Shown: positions 3,331 to 63,661 of the stretch, in pieces | Position numbering within the stretch: position 1 is the stretch's first letter | Layout: each line of letters begins with the position of its first letter | IMG/VR virus record: IMGVR_UViG_3300042534_000747 | Length of the DNA: 64,000 bases | Reading direction: 5' to 3' (one strand) | From: a virus | Translations under genes and position numbers: made by a program | The notes under the pieces: generated by a model | Databases searched by the model: none | What the model was told of the DNA's origin: nothing | Seen by the model: only the letters and a program-made list of their open reading frames with translations

Positions 3331-3591
3331 TTGAAAGATGATAAATGATATTGAATCAAAAAATATGATAATGATAGGTATTTGGATAATAAGTTTAGAG
3401 GGATTGTTATACAAATTAATAGAAATTATTCACATCCAACAACATGTGTTGTAAAGTATTCTGATGGTAATCAAGGCAATACATGGACTGATAAAATTGC
3501 AAAAATCGATTAAATATTATTTTTTTCTTTTTTACATAACATTTATATAATATAAGTGCCATTGTATGACTTGCAATTTTAGGTGAGACAT

Positions 3592-4185
3592 ATGATGAAG
3601 AGTGTTAACTATGCAATTTGGGTTATGATTGGATTTTTATATCTGGTTTTAACTGCAAATGTTGCAGTAAGTGGAACAATTGATTATAATCAAAGTTATG
3701 ATTATTTTGTAAATTATGAGCATAGTGTTTTAAAAATAAATGAATCTGATTACATGGGATTTGCAGGGGATTCATGTAAATATATGTATAATAATCCTGA
3801 AGCTGTTGATGTAAGTTATGATGAATTAATTAATTTTGTTGAAAATGATAAAACTGATAATTTATTATATGTTAATAATTTATTCAAATGTTTAGATTTT
3901 GCTACAGTACTTCATAATAATGCTGAAGAAAAAGGAATTAGAACAGGGATAGTTTTAATTAAATGGGAAAATAAATCAATAGGACATGCAATTAATTGTT
4001 TTAATACTACTGATAAAGGAATGATTTACATTGATAGTGTAGGCAGTAGTGAATATCAAAAAGATGTACAATATGATTCAATAAGTTGTTTTAGTGGTGG
4101 AAATTATATAGAAACTAATTTAAAAACAAATAAGGAGTGTATTAATCGAATGGGGAAATATCAATGGAAGAAAGAATATTGGTAA
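3592..4185 (+). CDS. Membrane-anchored transglutaminase-like (papain-fold) cysteine peptidase
   Basis: N-terminal hydrophobic segment; CLDFA...GHAINCF...IYID Cys-His-Asp triad; paralog of 21545..22156; start moved to the ATG after the AGGTGA RBS. Confidence 0.65.
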   Translation: MMKSVNYAIWVMIGFLYLVLTANVAVSGTIDYNQSYDYFVNYEHSVLKINESDYMGFAGDSCKYMYNNPEAVDVSYDELINFVENDKTDNLLYVNNLFKCLDFATVLHNNAEEKGIRTGIVLIKWENKSIGHAINCFNTTDKGMIYIDSVGSSEYQKDVQYDSISCFSGGNYIETNLKTNKECINRMGKYQWKKEYW

Positions 4186-16859: not shown

Positions 16860-19658
16860 TTAGCGGATAGGGCAAGCTCCGCCTTCACATCCACTTTCTA
16901 ATAATTCATAGTCTACATTTTCTACTTCATATTTTGAAATTAATGAAGGGTCAAAAGGTTTCATGTTAGCAAGTCTTTCTTCATATTCTTCTTTAGTTAT
17001 TGATTCATACGGTTGGAGTGGATAGAATGAATCATCAAGTGATAAGAAAGATATTGCCACTACATCATCCCAATTATCCCATACCCATTGTTCAACTAAT
17101 TCCCATTCATTTTCACGTACATGAACAGTGATTGAAGTGTTATGTTGCACATAGTTTTCCATGAACATTTTATAGTTTTCAAGCTGTTGGAGTGCAGATA
17201 CATCATATTTTGTAATACCTTCAGGTGCTTTGACAGGGAATTCTATAACTTTAGTTGTGCAATTTTCTTCTGTTTGTCCTGTTTCTGCAAATATAGGATA
17301 TTCCAAATCTTCACAAACACGACATAGAGGGTCATGAGATGCTATTCTTACACGTCTGATGTAATATGGACTATGTGAATAGTGGACTCCTGATGATACC
17401 AGTGGTAGAAGTGACAGAGAACCTTCAGGTTTGACCGTAGTGACTAGTTTAGGTTGTGGTAGACCTAACTTATCAGCGTAATTATTTGCGGAGTCTGAAG
17501 CAGCTTTATTTAGGCTTTTCAAAAGTTTCTTTTCTTCTTCTCTAGATAGGTTGAGAGCATTGACTATGTCCTGCCATCCAGTGAGTGAACATCCTGTGAG
17601 TTTATCTCTATGTAGAATTTCATTCCATTCAGGCATTTCCATTTCAACACAAGTCATTCTATAGCCCATTTTAGCAGACAATCTTTGAGCATTAAGTAAT
17701 CCTTCAATGTCAAGCTTGCCATCTTTTACAAAAGCCATTATATTGACAGTTGTGAGGTTACATGTTCCCTTATTGTCAAGAAGGATTTCACCACATGGGT
17801 TACATCCATTTGCATCATATCTTCTTTTTCTTGCAGCTTCAAGATTCATGAATGCAGGTTCACCAGAATAACGCATAGTCTTTATGTGCCAATTCCACTT
17901 TTCTCTAGTTGGTTTTGATTCATAGATAATTGTGTTATTTGACATTCTTCTATGAGATATTTCATCATTAATTACAAAATCATTACCTTGTTGAATATAG
18001 AGATTTGTTTTTGCATTAATACATTCTTCATCATCTGAATCAATGAGCACTATTTCTGATGTATTATGGGTTAAAATTCCTTCACATATGAAACAATGAT
18101 TATTTTCAACTGATATATCATAAGTTTCTTCTATTTCACCTGTATAAACAACTTCTTTTACAGTGATAGGAATTAATTTTTGAATTATATCAATTGATTT
18201 AATATAATTAGATAATTCTAAATTTTTAACATCTTTTGCATCAGGAATTGATACTAATCTATCATCAGGTTTAATATCCTTTGCCATTTTCCATTCATAC
18301 TTATCAATGTCTGTCATTATTGCCATTCTATGTTTATCAGTACATCTAAATTTACCAAATTGATGTTTTATAGTGACAATTTCTTGTTTACCTTGATATA
18401 CAAAATCAATAACATTTTGGTATCCATCGTCTGTAAGTACTTGCATACCTGTTTTAACATTCTCTATTGGAATCAAACCATCTTTGGTATGAACCATACT
18501 ACCTTCAGGTAAACATCTTCTTACTCCACCGCTTACTACATTTTCACCTATGATGTTAGCAATATCCATGCAGTTGATAGGTTTGAGTTTAAATGTTGTT
18601 GAATCTGCAACAATAGATGCTTTTTTAATTATTTTGTTGATTTTAACAAACATTGTTTTTAGGGATTCATGACCTGATGCAGTTCCACCAAACTTCTTTA
18701 ATTTCATACCTTTTGGTCTTACAAAATCATAATTCATTCTGATGGTTTTTATGTTCTTATATTCAGGTTTAGTAATTAAATCAAAATATGTTTGTAGAGC
18801 TTCAGACCAACCTTCTTTTGAATCTCCAATTGTGATTAAGACCATATCATTAGATTTAAAATCAATTGATGTGTTGTCACATTTGTTTTCAATTGTGTAT
18901 GTATAATCTTCATGAATTAATTCATGATTATAACGTACTTTAGGCAATCTTATAACATCTGATTTTAGGATTCTAATGCCTACTCCTGAACCTACCATAA
19001 GCAGATAGAAAAGTTCAATGAAATCACTGAATTTATTTATTATTTGAAAAGCACAATTATAATTAGACATAGGGTATTCATTTGCTACTGAAGTTCCACC
19101 TACCCATAGGGTTCTACCTGATGGAAATTGCCTAAGATTGAAGATATTGTCAAATATTTTTTCAGCTTCATCTTTTGTTGTGGGTGCAAGTGAACAATTA
19201 TATTCTACTGCCCTACGAATTGTTTCATACCATGTTTCCCTTCTACCTTTTTCTTGAATGAATCTGGAATATGTTCTGTAGTAAATGAATTTACCTAATT
19301 CAGATTCCATCGGCAAAGGTAAATGTTTGTATTTTGAAATGAATTCATCAGTGAGCAGTTGATTTTTTACAGGTTTACAGCATGTTCTTTCTTTAGCTCT
19401 TTCATCTCTATATCTCATGTATCTTCTTGCAGTTTCGATAAGGTTGTTTGCAAGGAGTTCTTTTTCAACCATATTTTGAATTTCTTCAACATCTACAATT
19501 TCTGTATCAATAGTTTCTTCAATCTTTTTTGCAATATCATATGCAATAGTAGTAGTAAATTTTTCAGATGATGTAGATTTAGCTAACATTATTACAGCAA
19601 TAATTTTTAAACCATCAAATTCAACTAATCTACCATCACGTTTTTTAATCATAGACAT
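16860..19658 (-). CDS. nrdJ: Class II (AdoCbl-dependent) ribonucleotide reductase, monomeric RTPR type, with ATP cone and intein
   Basis: ATP cone (IKKRDGRLVEFD), FPSGRTLW, NPCGEI, TTVKPEGSLSLL, C-terminal CEGGACPIR. Confidence 0.95.
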   Translation of the reverse strand: MSMIKKRDGRLVEFDGLKIIAVIMLAKSTSSEKFTTTIAYDIAKKIEETIDTEIVDVEEIQNMVEKELLANNLIETARRYMRYRDERAKERTCCKPVKNQLLTDEFISKYKHLPLPMESELGKFIYYRTYSRFIQEKGRRETWYETIRRAVEYNCSLAPTTKDEAEKIFDNIFNLRQFPSGRTLWVGGTSVANEYPMSNYNCAFQIINKFSDFIELFYLLMVGSGVGIRILKSDVIRLPKVRYNHELIHEDYTYTIENKCDNTSIDFKSNDMVLITIGDSKEGWSEALQTYFDLITKPEYKNIKTIRMNYDFVRPKGMKLKKFGGTASGHESLKTMFVKINKIIKKASIVADSTTFKLKPINCMDIANIIGENVVSGGVRRCLPEGSMVHTKDGLIPIENVKTGMQVLTDDGYQNVIDFVYQGKQEIVTIKHQFGKFRCTDKHRMAIMTDIDKYEWKMAKDIKPDDRLVSIPDAKDVKNLELSNYIKSIDIIQKLIPITVKEVVYTGEIEETYDISVENNHCFICEGILTHNTSEIVLIDSDDEECINAKTNLYIQQGNDFVINDEISHRRMSNNTIIYESKPTREKWNWHIKTMRYSGEPAFMNLEAARKRRYDANGCNPCGEILLDNKGTCNLTTVNIMAFVKDGKLDIEGLLNAQRLSAKMGYRMTCVEMEMPEWNEILHRDKLTGCSLTGWQDIVNALNLSREEEKKLLKSLNKAASDSANNYADKLGLPQPKLVTTVKPEGSLSLLPLVSSGVHYSHSPYYIRRVRIASHDPLCRVCEDLEYPIFAETGQTEENCTTKVIEFPVKAPEGITKYDVSALQQLENYKMFMENYVQHNTSITVHVRENEWELVEQWVWDNWDDVVAISFLSLDDSFYPLQPYESITKEEYEERLANMKPFDPSLISKYEVENVDYELLESGCEGGACPIR
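18063..18515 (-). mobile_element. 151-aa mini-intein in NrdJ (no homing endonuclease)
   Basis: GGVRR|CLPEGSMV...block B CTDKHR...YDISVENNHCFICEGILTHN|T. Confidence 0.93.
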
Positions 19659-19738
19659 TTTTTTACTCCATTAAAATTAGAACAAGTCAATTGATGTAAT
19701 GCAATATATATAAATGTATTGTAAAAATAGAAAGAGTA

Positions 19739-21391
19739 TTATTGATAAATACTCTTAAATTTATTATATTTAACAATTAATTCATCTGATGTTGTCAATT
19801 CATTGCCTTTTATGGTAGTGATATTGTCAGTTGAATCCATTACAAAAAGAGTTAATATTCCATCAATTTTCTTTACAATGTAAGTTTCTTCTAATTCTTC
19901 AATTCCATTATTAATTATAACATCTTCCTTCATTTCAATAATTTTAGAACTTATTGTTTCATACATTTCTTCAACTACATTTTTATCTTCTTCAATAGGT
20001 TCAATGATTTTTTCTTCAATAGGTTCAGGTTCTTCTATTGGTTCAGGTTCTTTGATAGGTTCAATAATTTCTTCTTCATCTAATTCTGATATATCAGGTA
20101 ATATTGGAACATTTGAAGATATTTCAGGTGTTTCCTGATGTGGCATTTTTAAAATTATTGAAGGTAAATCATTATCATATGCCATCAAAATTACATTTTT
20201 TATAGTTTTAATGTTTTCAATTTTAATAATAGTTTCAATATTATTGTTTGTGAATTCATTGAATTGAGATTGAAGCAGTATTATATCATCAAATTCTAAT
20301 TCATCTGTAAATGAATCTGTAAATGGAGATGCAATTAAAGATGTAATTTGTGAATTAATGGGTGATGAATTAGGAAATATTGTAGTTAATTTGGAATCTT
20401 TAAATTTATTGAATGGTTTAGCTCTTCCATCAATTCTACAAGATTCTCTCCATGCTAAATCATTAATAAATTTAGATATATTCTTTAATGTTGCAACTAC
20501 ATCATTTTTAGATTTCAATTCTAATTGATTCAAAACTTCATTAATTCCTATAATATTTAGATAAATAGGTAATGTGTTTTGCATATTCTCTTCTATTTCA
20601 GATGTAGGATAATGCAAATTTTGAGCATACCATTTTAACATTTGAACTGATGTTTCAACATATTCTCTAAGTATTTTATAGTCAAAACTATTATCTTCAT
20701 TGATTATTGAACTGATATTCAAATGTCCTGAAATAATAGATGAATTTTGATTAAAAAAATATCCATCATATGAAGGTATTACTATTTCATTTTCAAATGG
20801 ATGATATGCTTTTAAAATATCTTCAAAATAACAATTTATGTTAATGGGTGAATTAGATAAAGCATCAACTAAATCCTTTGAATTTAATATTTTCTTAACA
20901 CCTTCTTTAGTGTTAGTTGTATTGAAAGTACTATCTTTTTTGATGGCAATAGTTGTTTGTTCTGTGAATAAAATTGCCTTTTTATAATCAGTAGAATCAA
21001 GATTTATGAATTTTATAATATCTGGATTATCTGATTTCATTACAAATTGGTAATATTCTTCTTTAAATGCAATTTCAGATAAAGATGCAATTTTATTTAT
21101 AAAAGAAATATTATCTATGAGAATTGATAATTTACATCCAGTTACTTTTCTAAATAAATTCATATTTTGGTTATAATCTTCTTCAGTAAGAATATATGAA
21201 TTTGGAATTCCATCTACTGCATATGAATTAGGTATGAATATTCCATTTTTTATAATGCTATAAAATTCTTCTTTTTTATCAATGCTTACAATGATAGTTT
21301 CAGCAACTTTATTAGAAAAATCATCCCAACGTTCAATCTTATTAATTTCTGAATATGTATCTATTAATTTTTTAGTATATTCATTCATCAT
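19739..21391 (-). CDS. Catalytically inactive ribonucleotide-reductase-fold protein with acidic PE-rich linker
   Basis: Colinear RNR motifs (ERWDDF..VA, FIPNS, GHLNI, FDYKILREYV..V.ML, HYPTSEIEE, LNIIGI, LTTIFP) but no NPCGE and no catalytic Cys. Confidence 0.75.
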   Translation of the reverse strand: MMNEYTKKLIDTYSEINKIERWDDFSNKVAETIIVSIDKKEEFYSIIKNGIFIPNSYAVDGIPNSYILTEEDYNQNMNLFRKVTGCKLSILIDNISFINKIASLSEIAFKEEYYQFVMKSDNPDIIKFINLDSTDYKKAILFTEQTTIAIKKDSTFNTTNTKEGVKKILNSKDLVDALSNSPININCYFEDILKAYHPFENEIVIPSYDGYFFNQNSSIISGHLNISSIINEDNSFDYKILREYVETSVQMLKWYAQNLHYPTSEIEENMQNTLPIYLNIIGINEVLNQLELKSKNDVVATLKNISKFINDLAWRESCRIDGRAKPFNKFKDSKLTTIFPNSSPINSQITSLIASPFTDSFTDELEFDDIILLQSQFNEFTNNNIETIIKIENIKTIKNVILMAYDNDLPSIILKMPHQETPEISSNVPILPDISELDEEEIIEPIKEPEPIEEPEPIEEKIIEPIEEDKNVVEEMYETISSKIIEMKEDVIINNGIEELEETYIVKKIDGILTLFVMDSTDNITTIKGNELTTSDELIVKYNKFKSIYQ

Positions 21392-21544
21392 TTCATTTCC
21401 TATTTTTTGATACAGAACAAATAATGGCTTTTATTATATATAAGTCAATTGGTTGAATGGGTATTATTTTACTGAAATTTAATAAACTTTATATAATATG
21501 AGTGACATTCGTTGAACAATATTATAAACTAGAGGCATATATTA

Positions 21545-22156
21545 ATGATTAAAAATAGTTATATTCAAAAAATTACAAAATGTATAAGTTTAATATTTGT
21601 TATTTTGTCAATATTATTAACTATTCCAATTGTTGCATATGGTTTTGAAATACCTTACACCTATGTAAATGCAGTTGGTGAAAAAATTGTATTGATAGAT
21701 AATGAATCTGCTACAAATCCAACATATGATGAATTAGTTGAATTTATTCATGAAGATGAAACTGATAAAATATTATATGTTTATGATGAATATATGTGTG
21801 CAGATTTTGCAAAAGAATTACATGATAATGCTGAAGAAAAAGGAATTAGAGCAGGTTTTGTATTTATAGGATTTGAAAATAAAATAATAGGACATGCAAT
21901 CAATTGTTTTAATACTAGTGATAGAGGTTTAGTGTTTGTAGATTGTTGTGGTACTACTGAAATTGTAATTAATGATAACTATGATAAAATTGCATATGTT
22001 GAACTTGGTAAAGAATATGGAATGGTTTCAATGCAATATACCAATGATACTAGTTATGAATATTATGATTTAAGAAAAGATTTTAAAAGTGATAGAAAAG
22101 GATTTTTTGAAACTTTTGGAAATGTAAAAAATATAAGAATTTTTTGGGAAATGTAA
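21545..22156 (+). CDS. Membrane-anchored transglutaminase-like cysteine peptidase
   Basis: NPTYDEL..FI...CADFA...GHAINCF...VFVD; paralog of 3592..4185. Confidence 0.65.
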   Translation: MIKNSYIQKITKCISLIFVILSILLTIPIVAYGFEIPYTYVNAVGEKIVLIDNESATNPTYDELVEFIHEDETDKILYVYDEYMCADFAKELHDNAEEKGIRAGFVFIGFENKIIGHAINCFNTSDRGLVFVDCCGTTEIVINDNYDKIAYVELGKEYGMVSMQYTNDTSYEYYDLRKDFKSDRKGFFETFGNVKNIRIFWEM

Positions 22157-41526: not shown

Positions 41527-42492
41527 GTGATAAATATGAATATAATATTTGAAGGAATTCATGGTAGTAGATTATTTGAACTTAATAATGAACTTTCAGA
41601 TACAGATATAAAAGCAATCTATATACCTGAATTATTAGATGTTGTCAATGGAAAATTCAAAAAAACCATTACTTATAATGATAAAGAATTTCATAATGAA
41701 AAAAGTGATTCTAAAACAATTGATAAAGAAGTTATGTCAATTCAATTCTTTATAGAAAAGGCACTAGAAGGACTAATTATACAAGTTGATATGCTATTCA
41801 GTCCTGAAGATAAAACTATTGTTACAAGTGATTTATGGAAGTTTATAGTAGCAAATAAAAATAAGATAGTTTCTAAAACTATGATTCCTGCTTTCAGAGG
41901 TTATGTGTATCAGCAAATTGGCAAATATGCTAAAAGAGTTAAAAAAGTATCACAGGCAGAGGAAATTGTAGATATTCTCAATAAATATAATGATGATACT
42001 GTATTTGAACATATTTTTGAAGAAAATAAAGCATTCTTTGAAGATAATCCTAATATTACATTGGATGTTCATCAAAATATTAGATGCTTTAATTTCATGG
42101 GAAAGATGTATATTTTTACAACTAAAAATTATCATATACTTGATTCATTAAATAAGTATATAGGTAAATATGGTAGTAGAGTTCTTGAACTGAAAAAGAA
42201 TGAAAATGTAGATTGGAAATCAATTAGTCATGCATTCAGAGGTATTTATCAGTTGAAGCGTCTTGCTCTTTATGGAGAATATCAACATCCTATTCCTGAA
42301 AAAGATTATATCCTTCAAATAAAGAATGGTGAACTTGATTATGAGTTATTGATGGATGAGCTGTATGAAGAAATAGAAAATACTCTTATGTTAGCTGAAA
42401 ATTCTACTATGATTCCTGATGAACCAGATTATGAATTTTGGAATAATTTCATATTAGATGTATATGTTAATCAAATAAAAGAAAAATATTGA
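41527..42492 (+). CDS. Pol-beta-superfamily nucleotidyltransferase (RlaP/PF10127-like, T4 NrdC.11-like)
   Basis: IHGSRLFELNNELSDTDIKAIYIP; DWKSISHAFR...LLQIKNG. Confidence 0.85.
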   Translation: MINMNIIFEGIHGSRLFELNNELSDTDIKAIYIPELLDVVNGKFKKTITYNDKEFHNEKSDSKTIDKEVMSIQFFIEKALEGLIIQVDMLFSPEDKTIVTSDLWKFIVANKNKIVSKTMIPAFRGYVYQQIGKYAKRVKKVSQAEEIVDILNKYNDDTVFEHIFEENKAFFEDNPNITLDVHQNIRCFNFMGKMYIFTTKNYHILDSLNKYIGKYGSRVLELKKNENVDWKSISHAFRGIYQLKRLALYGEYQHPIPEKDYILQIKNGELDYELLMDELYEEIENTLMLAENSTMIPDEPDYEFWNNFILDVYVNQIKEKY

Positions 42493-54903: not shown

Positions 54904-56679
54904 TTAATTTTTCTTTTTATTGCCTTGATTTTGATTTTCATTGTAAACAATTAAAAGTAATCCGGCAATTATCATTCCATACATTGTTTGTGCTGTTGAA
55001 TTCATATTTAATATATTTTCAAACAATAAAGCTAAAAATTTATTATCATCATCTTCTTTTACATTTTCATTAGTAATTGGTGTATTTTCTTCTACATAAT
55101 CATTTAAATCATCATACACTTTAACTATTTCTGGATTTGCTTCTACAACTGCATCTACTTCTGCTTCTGCTTCTGCTTCTGCTTCTGCTTCAGGTTCAGT
55201 GGGGGTTGTTCCTGCACCAGATTTACTTGCTTCAATTGTATTACCGTATGCACCTATATTGATTCTACCACCGTTGTTGTCAGGTTCATATTCAAAATTT
55301 GAAAGAGGATTACCTGCATCAATTAATGGAGAAATTGTTTCTGAAATTACCCATGAATTTCCATTCCAACTTCCATATGTTGATTTTAAGTGGAAATCTG
55401 CTTTTGCTGAATCATAAGATGGATATACAAATTCAGGGTCTAAATTAGTATTATGTGTTCCCCATACAATATTTGAATTGCCATCAGTTGCATCCATACC
55501 ACCATACCAATTGTTGTAATCAGCATATACAATATGTTTAGGAGAATTGACAATGCTATAATATTTAATCATTTCATAATTAGTATCTGTATTTTTACAA
55601 ATATTATTGTTAAAGTAAATTTTCATATCCCAATTTGTATCATCATGGTATGGATATGGTGAATAAATACTAAGGATACCACCCTGAAATACACCAAAAA
55701 TTACATTGTTTTCAATGACAACATTTGTAAATCCTGATACTGAAATAGCACCTTGTAGGTCAGATGTTCCATCATGGTTTACATCATAGAATACATTATT
55801 TAGAACATATATATTCTTTGCAGAATTTGAAGATGTTATATGTTTACTATCATATATTGCACCACAAATATAAACTGCTGAATCACATATATTATGGAAT
55901 TCATTATCTTTTATAAGTATGTTGTATGTTGGATAATAATCTACCCATCCTTTAATGTATACTGTTCCGTATCCACTAATTGCATTACCTGCACCCCATA
56001 TTTCATTATTCAAAATGTTTACATCATGTGATAATTCAATTCTAAATGCTGTATTTACCCAATGGTCACCACGATTATTAGTAATATCCATATTATTACA
56101 TTTGTTTAACCAAACATTTTCGTGACCTGATTCAAAGAATTCACAATTATTTACAAGTCCATTACTGCAAGATTCAAAATATACAAAATCCATTGCATTT
56201 TCATGTAAATACATATCTTCTACAACTACATTATCACAATTTACGAATTGGAACATTCTGTATAAATACATACCTCTAACCAATTCATCATTGTTAGCAT
56301 AGTTTCCATCAACTTCAAAGCCATGAACATATAAATCATCATAACCATTAGCATTGAACATTGTTTTATATGCTCCCCATAATGCATTATTTTTTAATTT
56401 AACAATTGCATTTGAGTCACCTGTTAATTCAGTACCTCTCATACTAAATCTTATAGTATCGCCTATAACATATGTTCCACTTTTTAAGTATACTGTTCCA
56501 TCAACACCTGCTGCACTAATAGCTTGATTGATTTGAACTTCATCATTTGTTCCATCACAATTATACGTTCCACTGCCATCTCTTGCAACTGTAACTGTTG
56601 AAGCAGATGCCATAGACATTGAAAACAATAAAATCAATGTAACTATCAATATTTTTATATTTTTCATTTTTTTAACCAT
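54904..56679 (-). CDS. Disaggregatase-related right-handed beta-helix (PbH1) surface enzyme
   Basis: Signal peptide; TVTVARDGSGTYNCDGTNDEVQINQA; PbH1 repeats; DFHLKS...SPLIDAG...GGRINIGAYGNT; C-terminal TM. Confidence 0.75.
   Translation of the reverse strand: MVKKMKNIKILIVTLILLFSMSMASASTVTVARDGSGTYNCDGTNDEVQINQAISAAGVDGTVYLKSGTYVIGDTIRFSMRGTELTGDSNAIVKLKNNALWGAYKTMFNANGYDDLYVHGFEVDGNYANNDELVRGMYLYRMFQFVNCDNVVVEDMYLHENAMDFVYFESCSNGLVNNCEFFESGHENVWLNKCNNMDITNNRGDHWVNTAFRIELSHDVNILNNEIWGAGNAISGYGTVYIKGWVDYYPTYNILIKDNEFHNICDSAVYICGAIYDSKHITSSNSAKNIYVLNNVFYDVNHDGTSDLQGAISVSGFTNVVIENNVIFGVFQGGILSIYSPYPYHDDTNWDMKIYFNNNICKNTDTNYEMIKYYSIVNSPKHIVYADYNNWYGGMDATDGNSNIVWGTHNTNLDPEFVYPSYDSAKADFHLKSTYGSWNGNSWVISETISPLIDAGNPLSNFEYEPDNNGGRINIGAYGNTIEASKSGAGTTPTEPEAEAEAEAEAEVDAVVEANPEIVKVYDDLNDYVEENTPITNENVKEDDDNKFLALLFENILNMNSTAQTMYGMIIAGLLLIVYNENQNQGNKKKN
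55158..55191 (-). repeat. In-frame hexamer repeat (GAAGCA)x5-6 encoding poly-EA
   Basis: (CTTCTG)x5 on plus strand. Confidence 0.9.
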
Positions 56680-62248: not shown

Positions 62249-63661
62249 TTAGATATGAATGATATCATATCTTTCTGAATTTAATATATCAAGCATTAAA
62301 TCAATTGCTGATAGTCCACTTGTAATCTGACTGAATAAATTAGGACTGAAACCACTTACAAGCTGAACACCTGATTTATTAACTGCAACTGTTGGTTTAG
62401 TTCCATAATTTTCAACATTCCAGAATACAATTTCTGGTAAATTATAACCTTCTTCATTAAATTCTATTGAAATATCAGTAAATGTGCTATTTCCAGTGAT
62501 ATCTTCACAATCAAATTGCATATCACTAATTATATAGAGTTTTGAAGGCATTTCTGATTGCGGAACTCTATTATTAATTGCAACTTTTAATATTTTTCGT
62601 AATGCAAGTCTTAGGTCTGTATTATAGCCTACATTAGAATGTTCAATAAAATTCATTTTTTCATAAAGAGTATTTCCTCTTATTTGTATTAATAGAGGTA
62701 TATTACTAAATGACATGTAATGATTTGCAAAAACACCTTTATTACGTTCTGCATAATAGAGTGCAAGTGATACTGAAACGCTCATAGGTCTACCTGTCAT
62801 AGAAGATGAAACATCTGCCATTACAAGAGCATTTTCATTTTGTACATAATTTGGTAGTGCATTCCATAATGCTTCAAGTGTATTATCTTCTCTTGATATT
62901 TTATCATAAATTTCATATGGATAAAGTGTAGATGAATTTATTTTCATTTCACCATTTATAGCTTTCTTTATAAAGGCAGAATAACGTTCTTCATCATGCC
63001 TTTTGAATGCATTTCTATAATTCATTGATGCTTTTGATGGAACTGTTGAATAATCAATAGAATGCCAATTATTAAATGACATTTCAGTTTCAACGATTCC
63101 TATCTGTTTACGCAAGCTACTAATTGTTTTTCTATAATGAATTTCTGACATATTTAATTCATTAGCTAGATAATGTGCAAGTTTTCTTGTATTATATGAT
63201 GATGCATTGATTGTAGGCATCCATTTTGCAAGGAGTGAAGGGTTATCAGATATTAAATCAGAGGCAAGTTGATTTTTGATAATGTTAATCATTTCATCTT
63301 CAAGTGAAGTTCCAATTAAAATGAACAAATCATCCCATCTTCCATATTCTGCAATATGTGGTATTAAATATTTAACATCTTCAGGATAATTTATAGCAAG
63401 ATGATTGAAAATTGTTCTAAATAATTCTCTTTCACCCTGTCCTTCACGAACATCTCTTGAATAAAAAAGTGCCTTTAATGCAAGATTCTTATCTTCAAAA
63501 TAAGCTTTCATGAAAGTATTTATCTGAATAGATTTAGGTGTATTTCTCATAGCACCTGATGCAGAAAAGAAATCCAATACTACATTATTTGTTGATTTAA
63601 ATGCTTTATCTCCATTGAGAGTTTCAGTTTCATTAAAATGGTTTTTTAATTCGTTTAACAT
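62249..63661 (-). CDS. DUF2828 family protein (TROVE/Ro60-like N-terminus plus vWA domain)
   Basis: TLNGDKAFKST, LKALFYSRDVREGQGER, EYGRWDDL, LLAKWMP, DVSSSM MIDAS, ISDMQFD. Confidence 0.9.
   Translation of the reverse strand: MLNELKNHFNETETLNGDKAFKSTNNVVLDFFSASGAMRNTPKSIQINTFMKAYFEDKNLALKALFYSRDVREGQGERELFRTIFNHLAINYPEDVKYLIPHIAEYGRWDDLFILIGTSLEDEMINIIKNQLASDLISDNPSLLAKWMPTINASSYNTRKLAHYLANELNMSEIHYRKTISSLRKQIGIVETEMSFNNWHSIDYSTVPSKASMNYRNAFKRHDEERYSAFIKKAINGEMKINSSTLYPYEIYDKISREDNTLEALWNALPNYVQNENALVMADVSSSMTGRPMSVSVSLALYYAERNKGVFANHYMSFSNIPLLIQIRGNTLYEKMNFIEHSNVGYNTDLRLALRKILKVAINNRVPQSEMPSKLYIISDMQFDCEDITGNSTFTDISIEFNEEGYNLPEIVFWNVENYGTKPTVAVNKSGVQLVSGFSPNLFSQITSGLSAIDLMLDILNSERYDIIHI

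What the first reader, a model, noticed from the sequence alone, without database searches (positions are those of the whole stretch)
19739..21391. Catalytically dead ribonucleotide reductase beside the active NrdJ
Seen: this 550-aa ORF keeps RNR barrel landmarks in order (ERWDDF..VA, FIPNS, GHLNI, FDYKILREYVETSVQML, HYPTSEIEE...IYLNIIGI, LTTIFP). The NPCGE finger loop is replaced by IPSYDG and the resolving cysteines are absent. A PEPIEE acidic linker and a small extra domain follow. The FIPNS signature resembles dimeric NrdJ/NrdA rather than the neighbouring monomeric RTPR (FPSGR), so it is probably not a tandem duplicate. Known precedent: betaherpesvirus inactive R1 homologs (e.g. MCMV M45) were repurposed. 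Inference: an exapted pseudo-enzyme acting as a dominant-negative inhibitor of host RNR, a nucleotide sensor or sponge, or a scaffold.
Basis: partly seen in the sequence, partly recalled or inferred. Interest (0 to 1): 0.75.

Follow-up and report, generated by a model that had tools for sequence, protein, structure and literature searches.

The report
Dead ribonucleotide reductase copy beside NrdJ
A large virus-like element carries, directly before its working vitamin-B12 ribonucleotide reductase gene, a second reductase-fold gene that has lost every catalytic residue yet is kept intact by selection; only one other copy is known and its job is untested.

Summary
The ORF (minus strand, 550 aa) is a full-length homologue of the RNR catalytic subunit. 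Profile comparison with active dimeric-type RNRs gives 99.5% probability over residues 17-416, and fold searches give Z 26-27 to human R1 and Thermotoga NrdJ. All three catalytic cysteines are replaced: S65, NPCGE to IPSYD, I219. The nucleotide-binding loops and the C-terminal redox cysteines are also gone. An acidic linker and a 50-aa conserved end domain follow the core.

It is not a duplicate of the neighbouring ATP-cone, monomeric-type NrdJ, with which it shares no detectable similarity.

Only one relative was found among 1.8 billion representative proteins. It has 27-29% identity and the same losses, and it sits 18 nt upstream of the orthologous NrdJ on a 183-kb IMG/VR contig. Neutral decay is excluded: simulation predicts about 25 stop codons at half the observed divergence.

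Function is unknown. My best guess, at about 0.35, is a non-catalytic partner or scaffold in the element's dNTP-supply module. The dNTP-sensor and dominant-negative readings are weakened, because the effector loops are lost and the dimer region is the least conserved part.

This scan has already reported dead RNRs on other DNA, and betaherpesviruses have inactive R1 proteins. This is therefore a new variant of a known kind.

The parts
19739..21391 (-). Pseudo-RNR gene, 550 aa (P0001), including the stop codon
20132..21391 (-). RNR-alpha-like core, residues 1-420: degenerate all-alpha N-terminus plus the complete 10-stranded-barrel region, shortened by loop deletions
   Evidence: hhalign 17-416; VIA model range 1-420, Z 26-27; AF2 pLDDT 70-90 for residues 1-330; ESM Atlas model TM about 0.7 over 2-429
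20765..20779 (-). Finger-loop remnant I205-P-S-Y-D209 in place of N-P-C-G-E (thiyl-radical Cys replaced by Ser; MPTYH in the homologue)
19892..20131 (-). Acidic Pro/Glu-rich linker, residues 421-500 (EPEPIEEPEPIEE); predicted disordered
   Evidence: pLDDT below 40; the homologue has an equivalent acidic stretch
19742..19891 (-). C-terminal small beta-beta-beta-alpha domain, residues 501-550, with Y..KKIDGI..L.V conserved in both family members; no known family
16860..19658 (-). Active-looking class II NrdJ, 932 aa: ATP-cone + RNR_Alpha + RNR-II insertion domain + barrel, with NPCGE and the C-terminal CEGGAC pair intact
18063..18515 (-). 151-aa mini-intein in NrdJ (residues 382-532), absent from the orthologue on the related contig
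21442..21451 (-). CAATTGACTT, 50 nt upstream of the pseudo-RNR ATG and directly before a TATA-like ATATATAATAAAA
19684..19693 (-). The second and only other exact CAATTGACTT in the window, 25 nt upstream of the NrdJ ATG and after a TATA-like TTTATATATA
19723..19756 (-). 9-bp hairpin spanning the pseudo-RNR stop codon followed by TCTATTTTT: possible terminator or attenuator between the two genes
   Evidence: dG -7.9; not picked up by the GC-rich terminator scan

Best explanation
SHOWN (about 0.9): the gene encodes a pseudoenzyme. It is a full-length, fold-preserving descendant of a dimeric-type (class II NrdJ-like) RNR catalytic subunit. It has lost the thiyl-radical cysteine, both redox cysteines, the finger-loop Asn and Glu, the effector and substrate loops and the C-terminal thiol tail, so it cannot reduce ribonucleotides. 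Its origin is different from that of the adjacent ATP-cone, monomeric-type NrdJ, whose closest cellular relatives are clostridial. It is kept by purifying selection and has stayed next to that NrdJ in two elements that have diverged to 25-40% protein identity. INFERRED (about 0.35): it works as a non-catalytic binding or scaffold partner in the element's deoxyribonucleotide-supply module. A rigid barrel body would present a small conserved C-terminal domain on a long flexible acidic tether. That tether is the remnant of the swinging C-terminal arm of class II RNRs. Through it the protein would contact the NrdJ, or a factor acting on it, and so modulate its assembly, localisation or regulation rather than sense nucleotides itself. 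A likely history is that an ancestral resident dimeric NrdJ was functionally displaced when the clostridial-type NrdJ was acquired beside it, and the old copy was then exapted.
For: Homology and fold. Loss of catalytic and nucleotide-binding residues in both family members; of 109 columns at least 80% conserved in 15 active RNRs, P0001 keeps 39, P0003 keeps 23 and both keep 12. Separate origin from the neighbour; the NrdJ is 55-59% identical to Clostridia and Atribacterota NrdJ. Selection: one full-length orthologue at 27-29% identity with the same architecture. A neutral simulation gives about 25 stop codons (minimum 13; 0 of 200 runs stay open) at half the observed divergence. P0003 alone still matches the RNR profile (E 3.3e-5). 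Linkage: P0003 lies 18 nt upstream of the orthologous NrdJ on the same strand, while the genes on both sides of the pair differ between the two elements. In the window both genes carry the only two exact copies of CAATTGACTT in their upstream regions. The C-terminal domain and the acidic linker are conserved in both members.
Against: No physical or expression data exist. Adjacency can be a historical leftover of in-place displacement, and with only two genomes the preserved junction is weak evidence of coupling. The protein evolves much faster than the NrdJ (27% against 62% identity), which fits a host-interaction protein as well as an accessory subunit. None of about 200 loci holding related NrdJ genes (bacterial genomes, metagenomes, other large viral contigs) has such a gene, so the NrdJ type does not need it. 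The shared 10-mer is not at the equivalent places in the related contig, and a shared 10-mer between two AT-rich leaders has roughly a 1-in-10 chance expectation by my own estimate.
Confidence: 0.4

Rival explanations
1. Host-interaction or anti-defence exaptation, as in the herpesvirus R1 homologues. The dead barrel, the acidic tether and the end domain would bind and neutralise or sequester a host protein unrelated to dNTP synthesis. The position next to NrdJ would only reflect ancestry.
For: It evolves fast (27% identity against 62% for NrdJ), as arms-race proteins do. It has a disordered acidic linker plus a small conserved domain. Precedents are inactive R1 of betaherpesviruses binding RIP1/NEMO/p65 (PMC5469499, PMC3271075, PMC11772975) and EBV BORF2 binding APOBEC3B, which is also a structural neighbour (7rw6, Z 21.4). 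The lineage range is very narrow.
Against: No motif or domain points to any host target. The identity level is similar to that of most other orthologue pairs of the two elements (28-41%), so the rate is not exceptional. The tight pairing with NrdJ is kept.
Confidence: 0.25
2. Dominant-negative 'poison subunit'. It would heterodimerise with the host's dimeric RNR through the alphaA/alphaB four-helix interface and disable or deregulate it, while the element's monomeric-type NrdJ is immune.
For: It is derived from the dimeric RNR type. The AF2 model keeps helices at 70-82 and 96-107. The element's own reductase is of the monomeric type with the insertion domain.
Against: The alphaA-betaB-alphaB block is the least conserved core part between the two members (16% identity, with a 5-residue deletion in alphaB of P0003). 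The host and its RNR classes are unknown. The benefit to the element is unclear, since the dNTP pool is shared.
Confidence: 0.1
3. Nucleotide (dNTP/ATP) or cobalamin sensor or sponge that uses the old specificity, substrate or cofactor site.
For: D72 (the specificity-site Asp position, Cys+7) is invariant in all 17 aligned sequences. The finger-loop block is the best conserved region (38%, gapless), so the barrel interior may still matter.
Against: Loop 2 (QGGxRRG), GGGxG..LRP, the Arg of TRKIGLG, APTGT and GIEP are all lost in both members. There is no ATP-cone. A Tyr replaces the finger-loop Gly next to the pocket that holds the adenosyl group in class II enzymes (PMC9531940, section 8), which probably fills that pocket; this last point is inference.
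Confidence: 0.07
4. Functionless relic of a displaced reductase that is still translated, kept open only by chance or for translational coupling of NrdJ.
For: All catalytic features are lost. The N-terminus is truncated in P0003. Only two members are known.
Against: Neutral evolution to this divergence would give about 25 stops per lineage. Both ORFs are intact, collinear and still recognisably RNR-fold. In the window the NrdJ has its own 80-nt leader with TATA-like and SD-like elements, so coupling is not needed.
Confidence: 0.08
5. A still-active enzyme with a different, non-radical chemistry in the old active site.
For: Ser or Thr replaces two of the three cysteines in both members, and P-[ST]-Y is conserved at the finger-loop tip.
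Against: Cys to Ser/Thr is the cheapest substitution. No new conserved catalytic constellation can be defined from two sequences. The substrate phosphate-binding elements are lost.
Confidence: 0.05

Closest known systems
Dimeric class II (adenosylcobalamin) ribonucleotide reductase NrdJ, Thermotoga maritima type (PDB 1xje, 3o0o); Pfam PF00317 + PF02867 (+ PF12637 TSCPD)
   Same: Same fold over the whole core (Z 26.1, 365 residues aligned) and the same order of motifs. These are the nearest sequence relatives. A flexible C-terminal extension ends in a small domain.
   Different: All catalytic cysteines, the Asn and Glu of the finger loop, effector loops 1 and 2, the phosphate loop and the C-terminal Cys/zinc-finger tail are missing. 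The core is about 130 residues shorter. TSCPD likeness of the end domain is not significant.
Inactive R1 homologues of betaherpesviruses (MCMV M45/vIRA, HCMV UL45, HHV-6B U28); PMC5469499, PMC3271075, PMC11772975
   Same: A virus-borne RNR large-subunit homologue that keeps the fold, has lost catalysis and is retained by selection.
   Different: Independent origin: those derive from class Ia eukaryote-type R1, this one from a class II-like prokaryotic type. Those viruses have no active RNR, whereas here an active NrdJ sits next door. No RHIM-type N-terminal extension is visible in the sequence by reading. The host is prokaryotic, probably archaeal.
Dead RNR paralogues reported earlier in this scan on other DNA (e1-1446145, e1-3760655, e1-5050829: class II-derived; e1-2310938: class I; several NrdD-derived)
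   Same: RNR barrel kept and radical/redox residues lost. Several lie beside an active RNR gene.
   Different: Those are cellular (bacterial or archaeal chromosomes). This one is on a large virus-like element, shares no close sequence similarity with anything but one orthologue, and has its own acidic linker plus end domain. I did not re-test those notes.
Minimal class O RNR alpha of Synechococcus phage S-CBP4 (PDB 7urg; PMC9531940)
   Same: A viral RNR alpha of similar small size (about 400-470 aa) consisting of little more than the barrel; structural match Z 16.8.
   Different: S-CBP4 alpha is active, with a catalytic Cys at the finger-loop tip, a redox Cys pair and a TTP-binding specificity site.

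Membership tests
RNR catalytic subunit, class I/II (PF02867 barrel) - homology | 10-stranded alpha/beta barrel with finger loop, detectable by profile and by structure | tested here: met
   Pfam 33 bits, above the 23.9 cutoff; hhalign 99.5% over 17-416; Foldseek E 2e-15; VIA Z 27.1 and 26.1; independent ESM model TM about 0.7. Caveat: my AF2 alignment was mostly active RNRs.
RNR catalytic subunit - enzyme | Thiyl-radical cysteine in the N-P-C-G-E finger loop, with Asn and Glu | tested here: not met
   I-P-S-Y-D in P0001 (205-209) and M-P-T-Y-H in P0003
RNR catalytic subunit - enzyme | Redox-active cysteine pair (LSAC strand and SCNLG strand) | tested here: not met
   S65 and I219 in P0001; Ser and Val in P0003
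RNR catalytic subunit - enzyme | Allosteric specificity site (loop 1, loop 2 QGGxRRG, Arg of LRP) | tested here: not met
   The loops are deleted or replaced; only D72 is kept
RNR catalytic subunit - enzyme | C-terminal cysteine pair or zinc finger for re-reduction | tested here: not met
   No Cys after residue 318 of P0001. P0003 has a single Cys in its C-terminal domain, which is not conserved.
Dimeric class II NrdJ (lgN + barrel + TSCPD) | TSCPD C-terminal domain | tested here: inconclusive
   No Pfam hit at E up to 10. hhalign finds only 17 columns at the start of the TSCPD region, E 0.078. The position and the beta-beta-beta-alpha order agree.
Dimeric class II NrdJ | Homodimer through the alphaA/alphaB helices | not testable with these tools
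   Helices are predicted at 70-82 and 96-107, but this block is only 16% identical between the two members.
Dimeric class II NrdJ | Adenosylcobalamin binding | not tested
   The tools give no residue-level map of the cobalamin site. The Gly to Tyr change at the finger-loop tip suggests loss (inference from PMC9531940, section 8).
Monomeric class II RTPR type (the neighbouring NrdJ) | RNR_Alpha (PF17975) and RNR-II insertion domain (PF21995); sequence similarity to the neighbour | tested here: not met
   Neither domain is in P0001; BLASTP E 0.91 and hhalign probability 0.1% against the NrdJ pair
Herpesvirus inactive R1 (M45/UL45 type) | Class Ia R1 descent with an N-terminal host-interaction extension (RHIM) | tested here: not met
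   The nearest relatives are class II-type prokaryotic RNRs. There is no N-terminal extension, as the protein starts in the lgN-like helices. No [IV]Q[IV]G motif is seen. It works like these proteins only in the general sense of being a viral dead R1.

The most novel reading that the evidence does not exclude
The pseudo-RNR is a dedicated non-catalytic alpha-like subunit of a class II reductase. It would bind the element's ATP-cone, monomeric-type NrdJ through its tethered end domain or its barrel, and set the enzyme's activity, oligomeric state or placement at the replication site. That would be the first accessory 'dead alpha' partner known for any B12-dependent RNR, and an example of a displaced enzyme turned into a regulator of its replacement.
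Probability: 0.15. Interest if true: 0.7.

Novelty: new variant of a known kind. Interest (0 to 1): 0.45.

Why it matters
RNR is the only de novo route to DNA precursors, and viral RNR genes are widely used as markers and counted as metabolic genes. A dead copy beside a live one shows that an RNR barrel hit cannot be read as activity. It also gives a prokaryotic, probably archaeal, virus-like parallel to the repurposed R1 proteins of herpesviruses. Here the active enzyme is still present next door, so exaptation after functional displacement can be studied directly. If the protein proves to bind or regulate the NrdJ, it would add a new kind of control to class II RNRs, whose regulation with ATP-cones is poorly known. 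With only two members and no functional data, the present value is a clear, testable lead rather than a discovery.

Tried and rejected
- PHROGs: no family for P0001, and none for ten other large ORFs of the window.
- PDB sequence searches with P0001 and with the two-member profile found nothing.
- tblastn and blastn against 50,697 phage records found nothing.
- The word-indexed search of 5.8 billion proteins, with the single sequence and with the pair, gave no hits and did not even recover P0003, so it was uninformative.
- Pattern scans of viral contigs (only the same 183-kb contig), metagenome contigs and species genomes found no further members.
- I looked for hidden members next to related NrdJ genes in 80 genome loci, 80 metagenome loci and 43 viral loci, by tblastn and by an HMM of the pair. 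None was found.
- Single-sequence AF2 failed, with pLDDT 35.
- The TSCPD identity of the end domain is not significant. The ESM Atlas search of the end domain gave only short, unspecific matches.
- Homodimer prediction of residues 1-420 returned 'no answer', which is neither support nor evidence against binding.
- A co-fold of the pseudo-RNR with the full NrdJ was not attempted. The pair exceeds the 1000-residue limit, and cutting either barrel would expose its core.
- dN/dS could not be computed. The two orthologues are saturated at 27% identity, and the two contigs carrying P0003 are identical in DNA.
- CAATTGACTT as a conserved operator is not supported: it is absent from the equivalent positions of the related contig.
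- No genome is held for this window, so the host and its RNR set could not be examined.

Full report
**What is there.**
The finding's coordinates hold one ORF on the minus strand (19739-21391, 550 aa, P0001). Eighty bases downstream on the same strand lies a 932-aa class II reductase (16860-19658, P0002). That protein has an ATP-cone, the RNR_Alpha and RNR-II insertion domains typical of the monomeric Lactobacillus-type enzyme, an intact NPCGE loop, a C-terminal CEGGAC pair and a 151-aa mini-intein.

**Is it an RNR?**
- Pfam's barrel model matches residues 222-336 above its curated cutoff (E 3.5e-8, 33 bits against 23.9). The N-terminal all-alpha model matches weakly.
- A full HMMER scan of 1.8 billion representative proteins found 27 hits. 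One is a full-length homologue (P0003, 540 aa, E 6e-24). The rest are genuine RNRs, mostly of the dimeric class II architecture lgN + barrel + TSCPD.
- A profile of P0001 + P0003 against 15 of these active enzymes gives 99.5% probability, E 1.6e-22. It aligns residues 17-416 with the whole N-terminal helix and barrel region of the enzymes. P0003 alone still scores E 3.3e-5.
- AF2 with a mixed alignment is confident for residues 1-330 (pLDDT 70-90) and poor beyond that.
- Foldseek's best hits are human R1 and Thermotoga NrdJ (E 2e-15).
- An all-against-representatives structural search gives Z 27.1 (5d1y), 26.1 (1xje) and 20.5 (1l1l), all spanning model residues 1-420. Glycyl-radical enzymes follow only at Z 8-15.
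- My alignment was mostly RNRs, so that model leans towards the RNR fold. The ESM Atlas's own model of this protein is independent of my alignment and also superposes on RNR clusters, with TM 0.66-0.70 over residues 2-429.

**Is it dead?**
The alignments show these replacements:

| Active-RNR feature | P0001 | P0003 |
|---|---|---|
| First redox Cys (LSAC) | S65 | Ser |
| Finger loop N-P-C-G-E | I-P-S-Y-D (205-209) | M-P-T-Y-H |
| Second redox Cys (SCNLG) | I219 | Val |
| His of HPDI | Asn | Asn |
| Arg of TRKIGLG | Leu | Pro |
| E-P of GIEP | T-S | T-S |

- Loop 2 (QGGxRRG), the GGGxG..LRP block and the APTGT phosphate loop are deleted or unrecognisable in both proteins.
- There is no C-terminal cysteine pair or zinc finger.
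- Of 109 columns at least 80% conserved among the 15 active enzymes, P0001 keeps 39, P0003 keeps 23, and both keep 12.
- One specificity-site position survives everywhere: D72, seven residues after the first Cys position. By my recollection this is the place of E. coli D232.
- P0003 has a Cys in 'TYHCNF' that one alignment places on the SCNLG Cys. The gapless pairwise alignment with P0001 instead puts it on G210, so it is not conserved in the family.
- The protein cannot carry out radical ribonucleotide reduction.

**Not a duplicate of the neighbour.**
- P0001 has no detectable similarity to P0002 (BLASTP E 0.91; profile-profile probability 0.1%).
- The NrdJ's closest cellular relatives are clostridial and atribacterial enzymes of identical architecture, at 55-59% identity over all 782 residues.

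**The family and its context.**
- P0003 lies on a 183-kb IMG/VR viral contig (UViG 3300042535_000037), and identically on a Logan contig.
- It sits 18 nt upstream of the orthologous NrdJ, which has no intein, on the same strand.
- That contig and the window are syntenic relatives. Orthologue pairs are 25-41% identical, the NrdJ 56-63% (62% in a full alignment) and the pseudo-RNR 27-29%.
- The genes flanking the pair differ between the two elements, so the pair has moved or stayed as a unit.
- No other member was found in phage records, PHROGs, viral contigs, metagenome contigs or 185,579 species genomes. None was found next to about 200 related NrdJ genes.
- Pfam hints elsewhere in the window and in the relative suggest an archaeal virus-like element: archaeal pilin N-terminus, disaggregatase-related, PTH2, and ERCC4 + HHH. 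Earlier notes of this scan say the same. I did not establish the host.

**Selection.**
- Classical dN/dS is impossible because the divergence is saturated and no close variant exists.
- I therefore simulated neutral substitution of the coding sequence at the window's base composition (26% G+C).
- At half the observed divergence (52% identity to the start), the sequence had a mean of 25 in-frame stops and a minimum of 13. None of 200 runs stayed open.
- Both real genes are intact, collinear and still recognisable as RNR folds. Neutral decay since their split is excluded.

**What the conservation pattern says.**
- Between the two members, the best conserved blocks are barrel-core strands. These include the finger-loop block (38% identity, gapless), FVMKxDN..FI (39%) and the long helix with KPF (34%).
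- The alphaA-betaB-alphaB block, which forms the dimer interface and the specificity site in real RNRs, is the least conserved core part (16%, with a deletion in P0003).
- The N-terminal helices are largely missing in P0003.
- After the core come an acidic Pro/Glu linker and a 50-residue beta-beta-beta-alpha domain with a shared Y..KKIDGI..L.V motif.
- The position of that domain echoes the TSCPD domain of dimeric NrdJ, but the likeness is not significant.

**How it most likely works.**
- The identity of the protein is shown. The mechanism is inferred.
- The nucleotide-binding elements are gone and the dimer region is not preserved, so I rank the dNTP-sensor and dominant-negative models low.
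- What is preserved is a stable barrel body, a flexible acidic tether and a small end domain, together with the position directly before the active NrdJ.
- I therefore favour, at about 0.35, a non-catalytic partner or scaffold in the element's dNTP-supply module.
- It probably arose when a resident dimeric NrdJ was displaced by a newly acquired clostridial-type NrdJ.
- The main rival, at about 0.25, is exaptation for a host-directed function, as in the herpesvirus R1 homologues (PMC5469499, PMC3271075, PMC11772975). In that case adjacency is only history.
- A homodimer prediction gave no verdict and is not used either way.

**Regulatory details in the window.**
- The only two exact copies of CAATTGACTT in 64 kb lie 50 nt and 25 nt upstream of the two start codons, each next to a TATA-like run.
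- A 9-bp hairpin with a T tract spans the pseudo-RNR stop codon.
- The 10-mer is not at the equivalent sites in the relative, where the genes are only 18 nt apart. I treat it as a weak lead.

**Novelty.**
- Dead RNR large subunits in viruses are known from betaherpesviruses.
- This scan has already reported dead class I, II and III RNR paralogues on other, cellular DNA.
- This case is an independent, class II-derived instance on a prokaryotic, probably archaeal, virus-like element, sitting beside a live NrdJ.
- It is a new variant of a known kind, of moderate interest, limited by having only two members and no functional evidence.

Noticed in passing
window 18063-18515 (-): The NrdJ carries a 151-aa mini-intein (C382...HN532, +1 Thr) inserted in GGVRR|TSE. 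The orthologue on the related 183-kb contig has the uninterrupted site, so the intein was gained or lost recently within this lineage.
   Followed up: partly
window 16860-19658 (-); loci L005-L084: The element's ATP-cone NrdJ is 55-59% identical over its full length to NrdJ of Clostridia (Tissierellales, Alkaliphilus, Sedimentibacter) and Atribacterota. Other genes of the element look archaeal. This suggests a cross-domain transfer of the reductase, or else the host assignment needs checking.
   Followed up: partly
window 19684-19693 and 21442-21451 (-): The exact 10-mer CAATTGACTT, which contains the palindrome CAATTG, occurs only twice in 64 kb. Both copies are in the leaders of the two RNR-fold genes. 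It is not conserved in the related contig.
   Followed up: partly
window 19723-19756 (-): A perfect 9-bp hairpin (AAGAGTATT/AATACTCTT, dG -7.9) overlaps the pseudo-RNR stop codon and is followed by TCTATTTTT. It is a possible terminator or attenuator before the NrdJ promoter.
   Followed up: partly
window 3583-4185 (+) and 21545-22156 (+): Two paralogous proteins of about 200 aa, both 38-41% identical to one gene of the related contig (L001 5917-6501). One is divergently oriented right next to the pseudo-RNR promoter. No family hit.
   Followed up: no
L001 11642-13990 (+): The orthologous NrdJ has N-P-C-M-E instead of N-P-C-G-E in the finger loop, an unusual Gly to Met change next to the radical cysteine.
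   Followed up: no
window 62249-63661 (-), 54904-56679 (-), 41527-42492 (+): Other recognisable genes in the window: a DUF2828/DUF7788 (Ro60-like/TROVE-related) protein, a beta-helix plus disaggregatase-related protein, and an RlaP-type nucleotidyltransferase.
   Followed up: no
hit P0008 (774 aa): One active relative is a natural fusion of a cobalamin adenosyltransferase domain (PF01923) to a dimeric-type class II RNR. This shows that cofactor supply and the reductase can be physically coupled.
   Followed up: no
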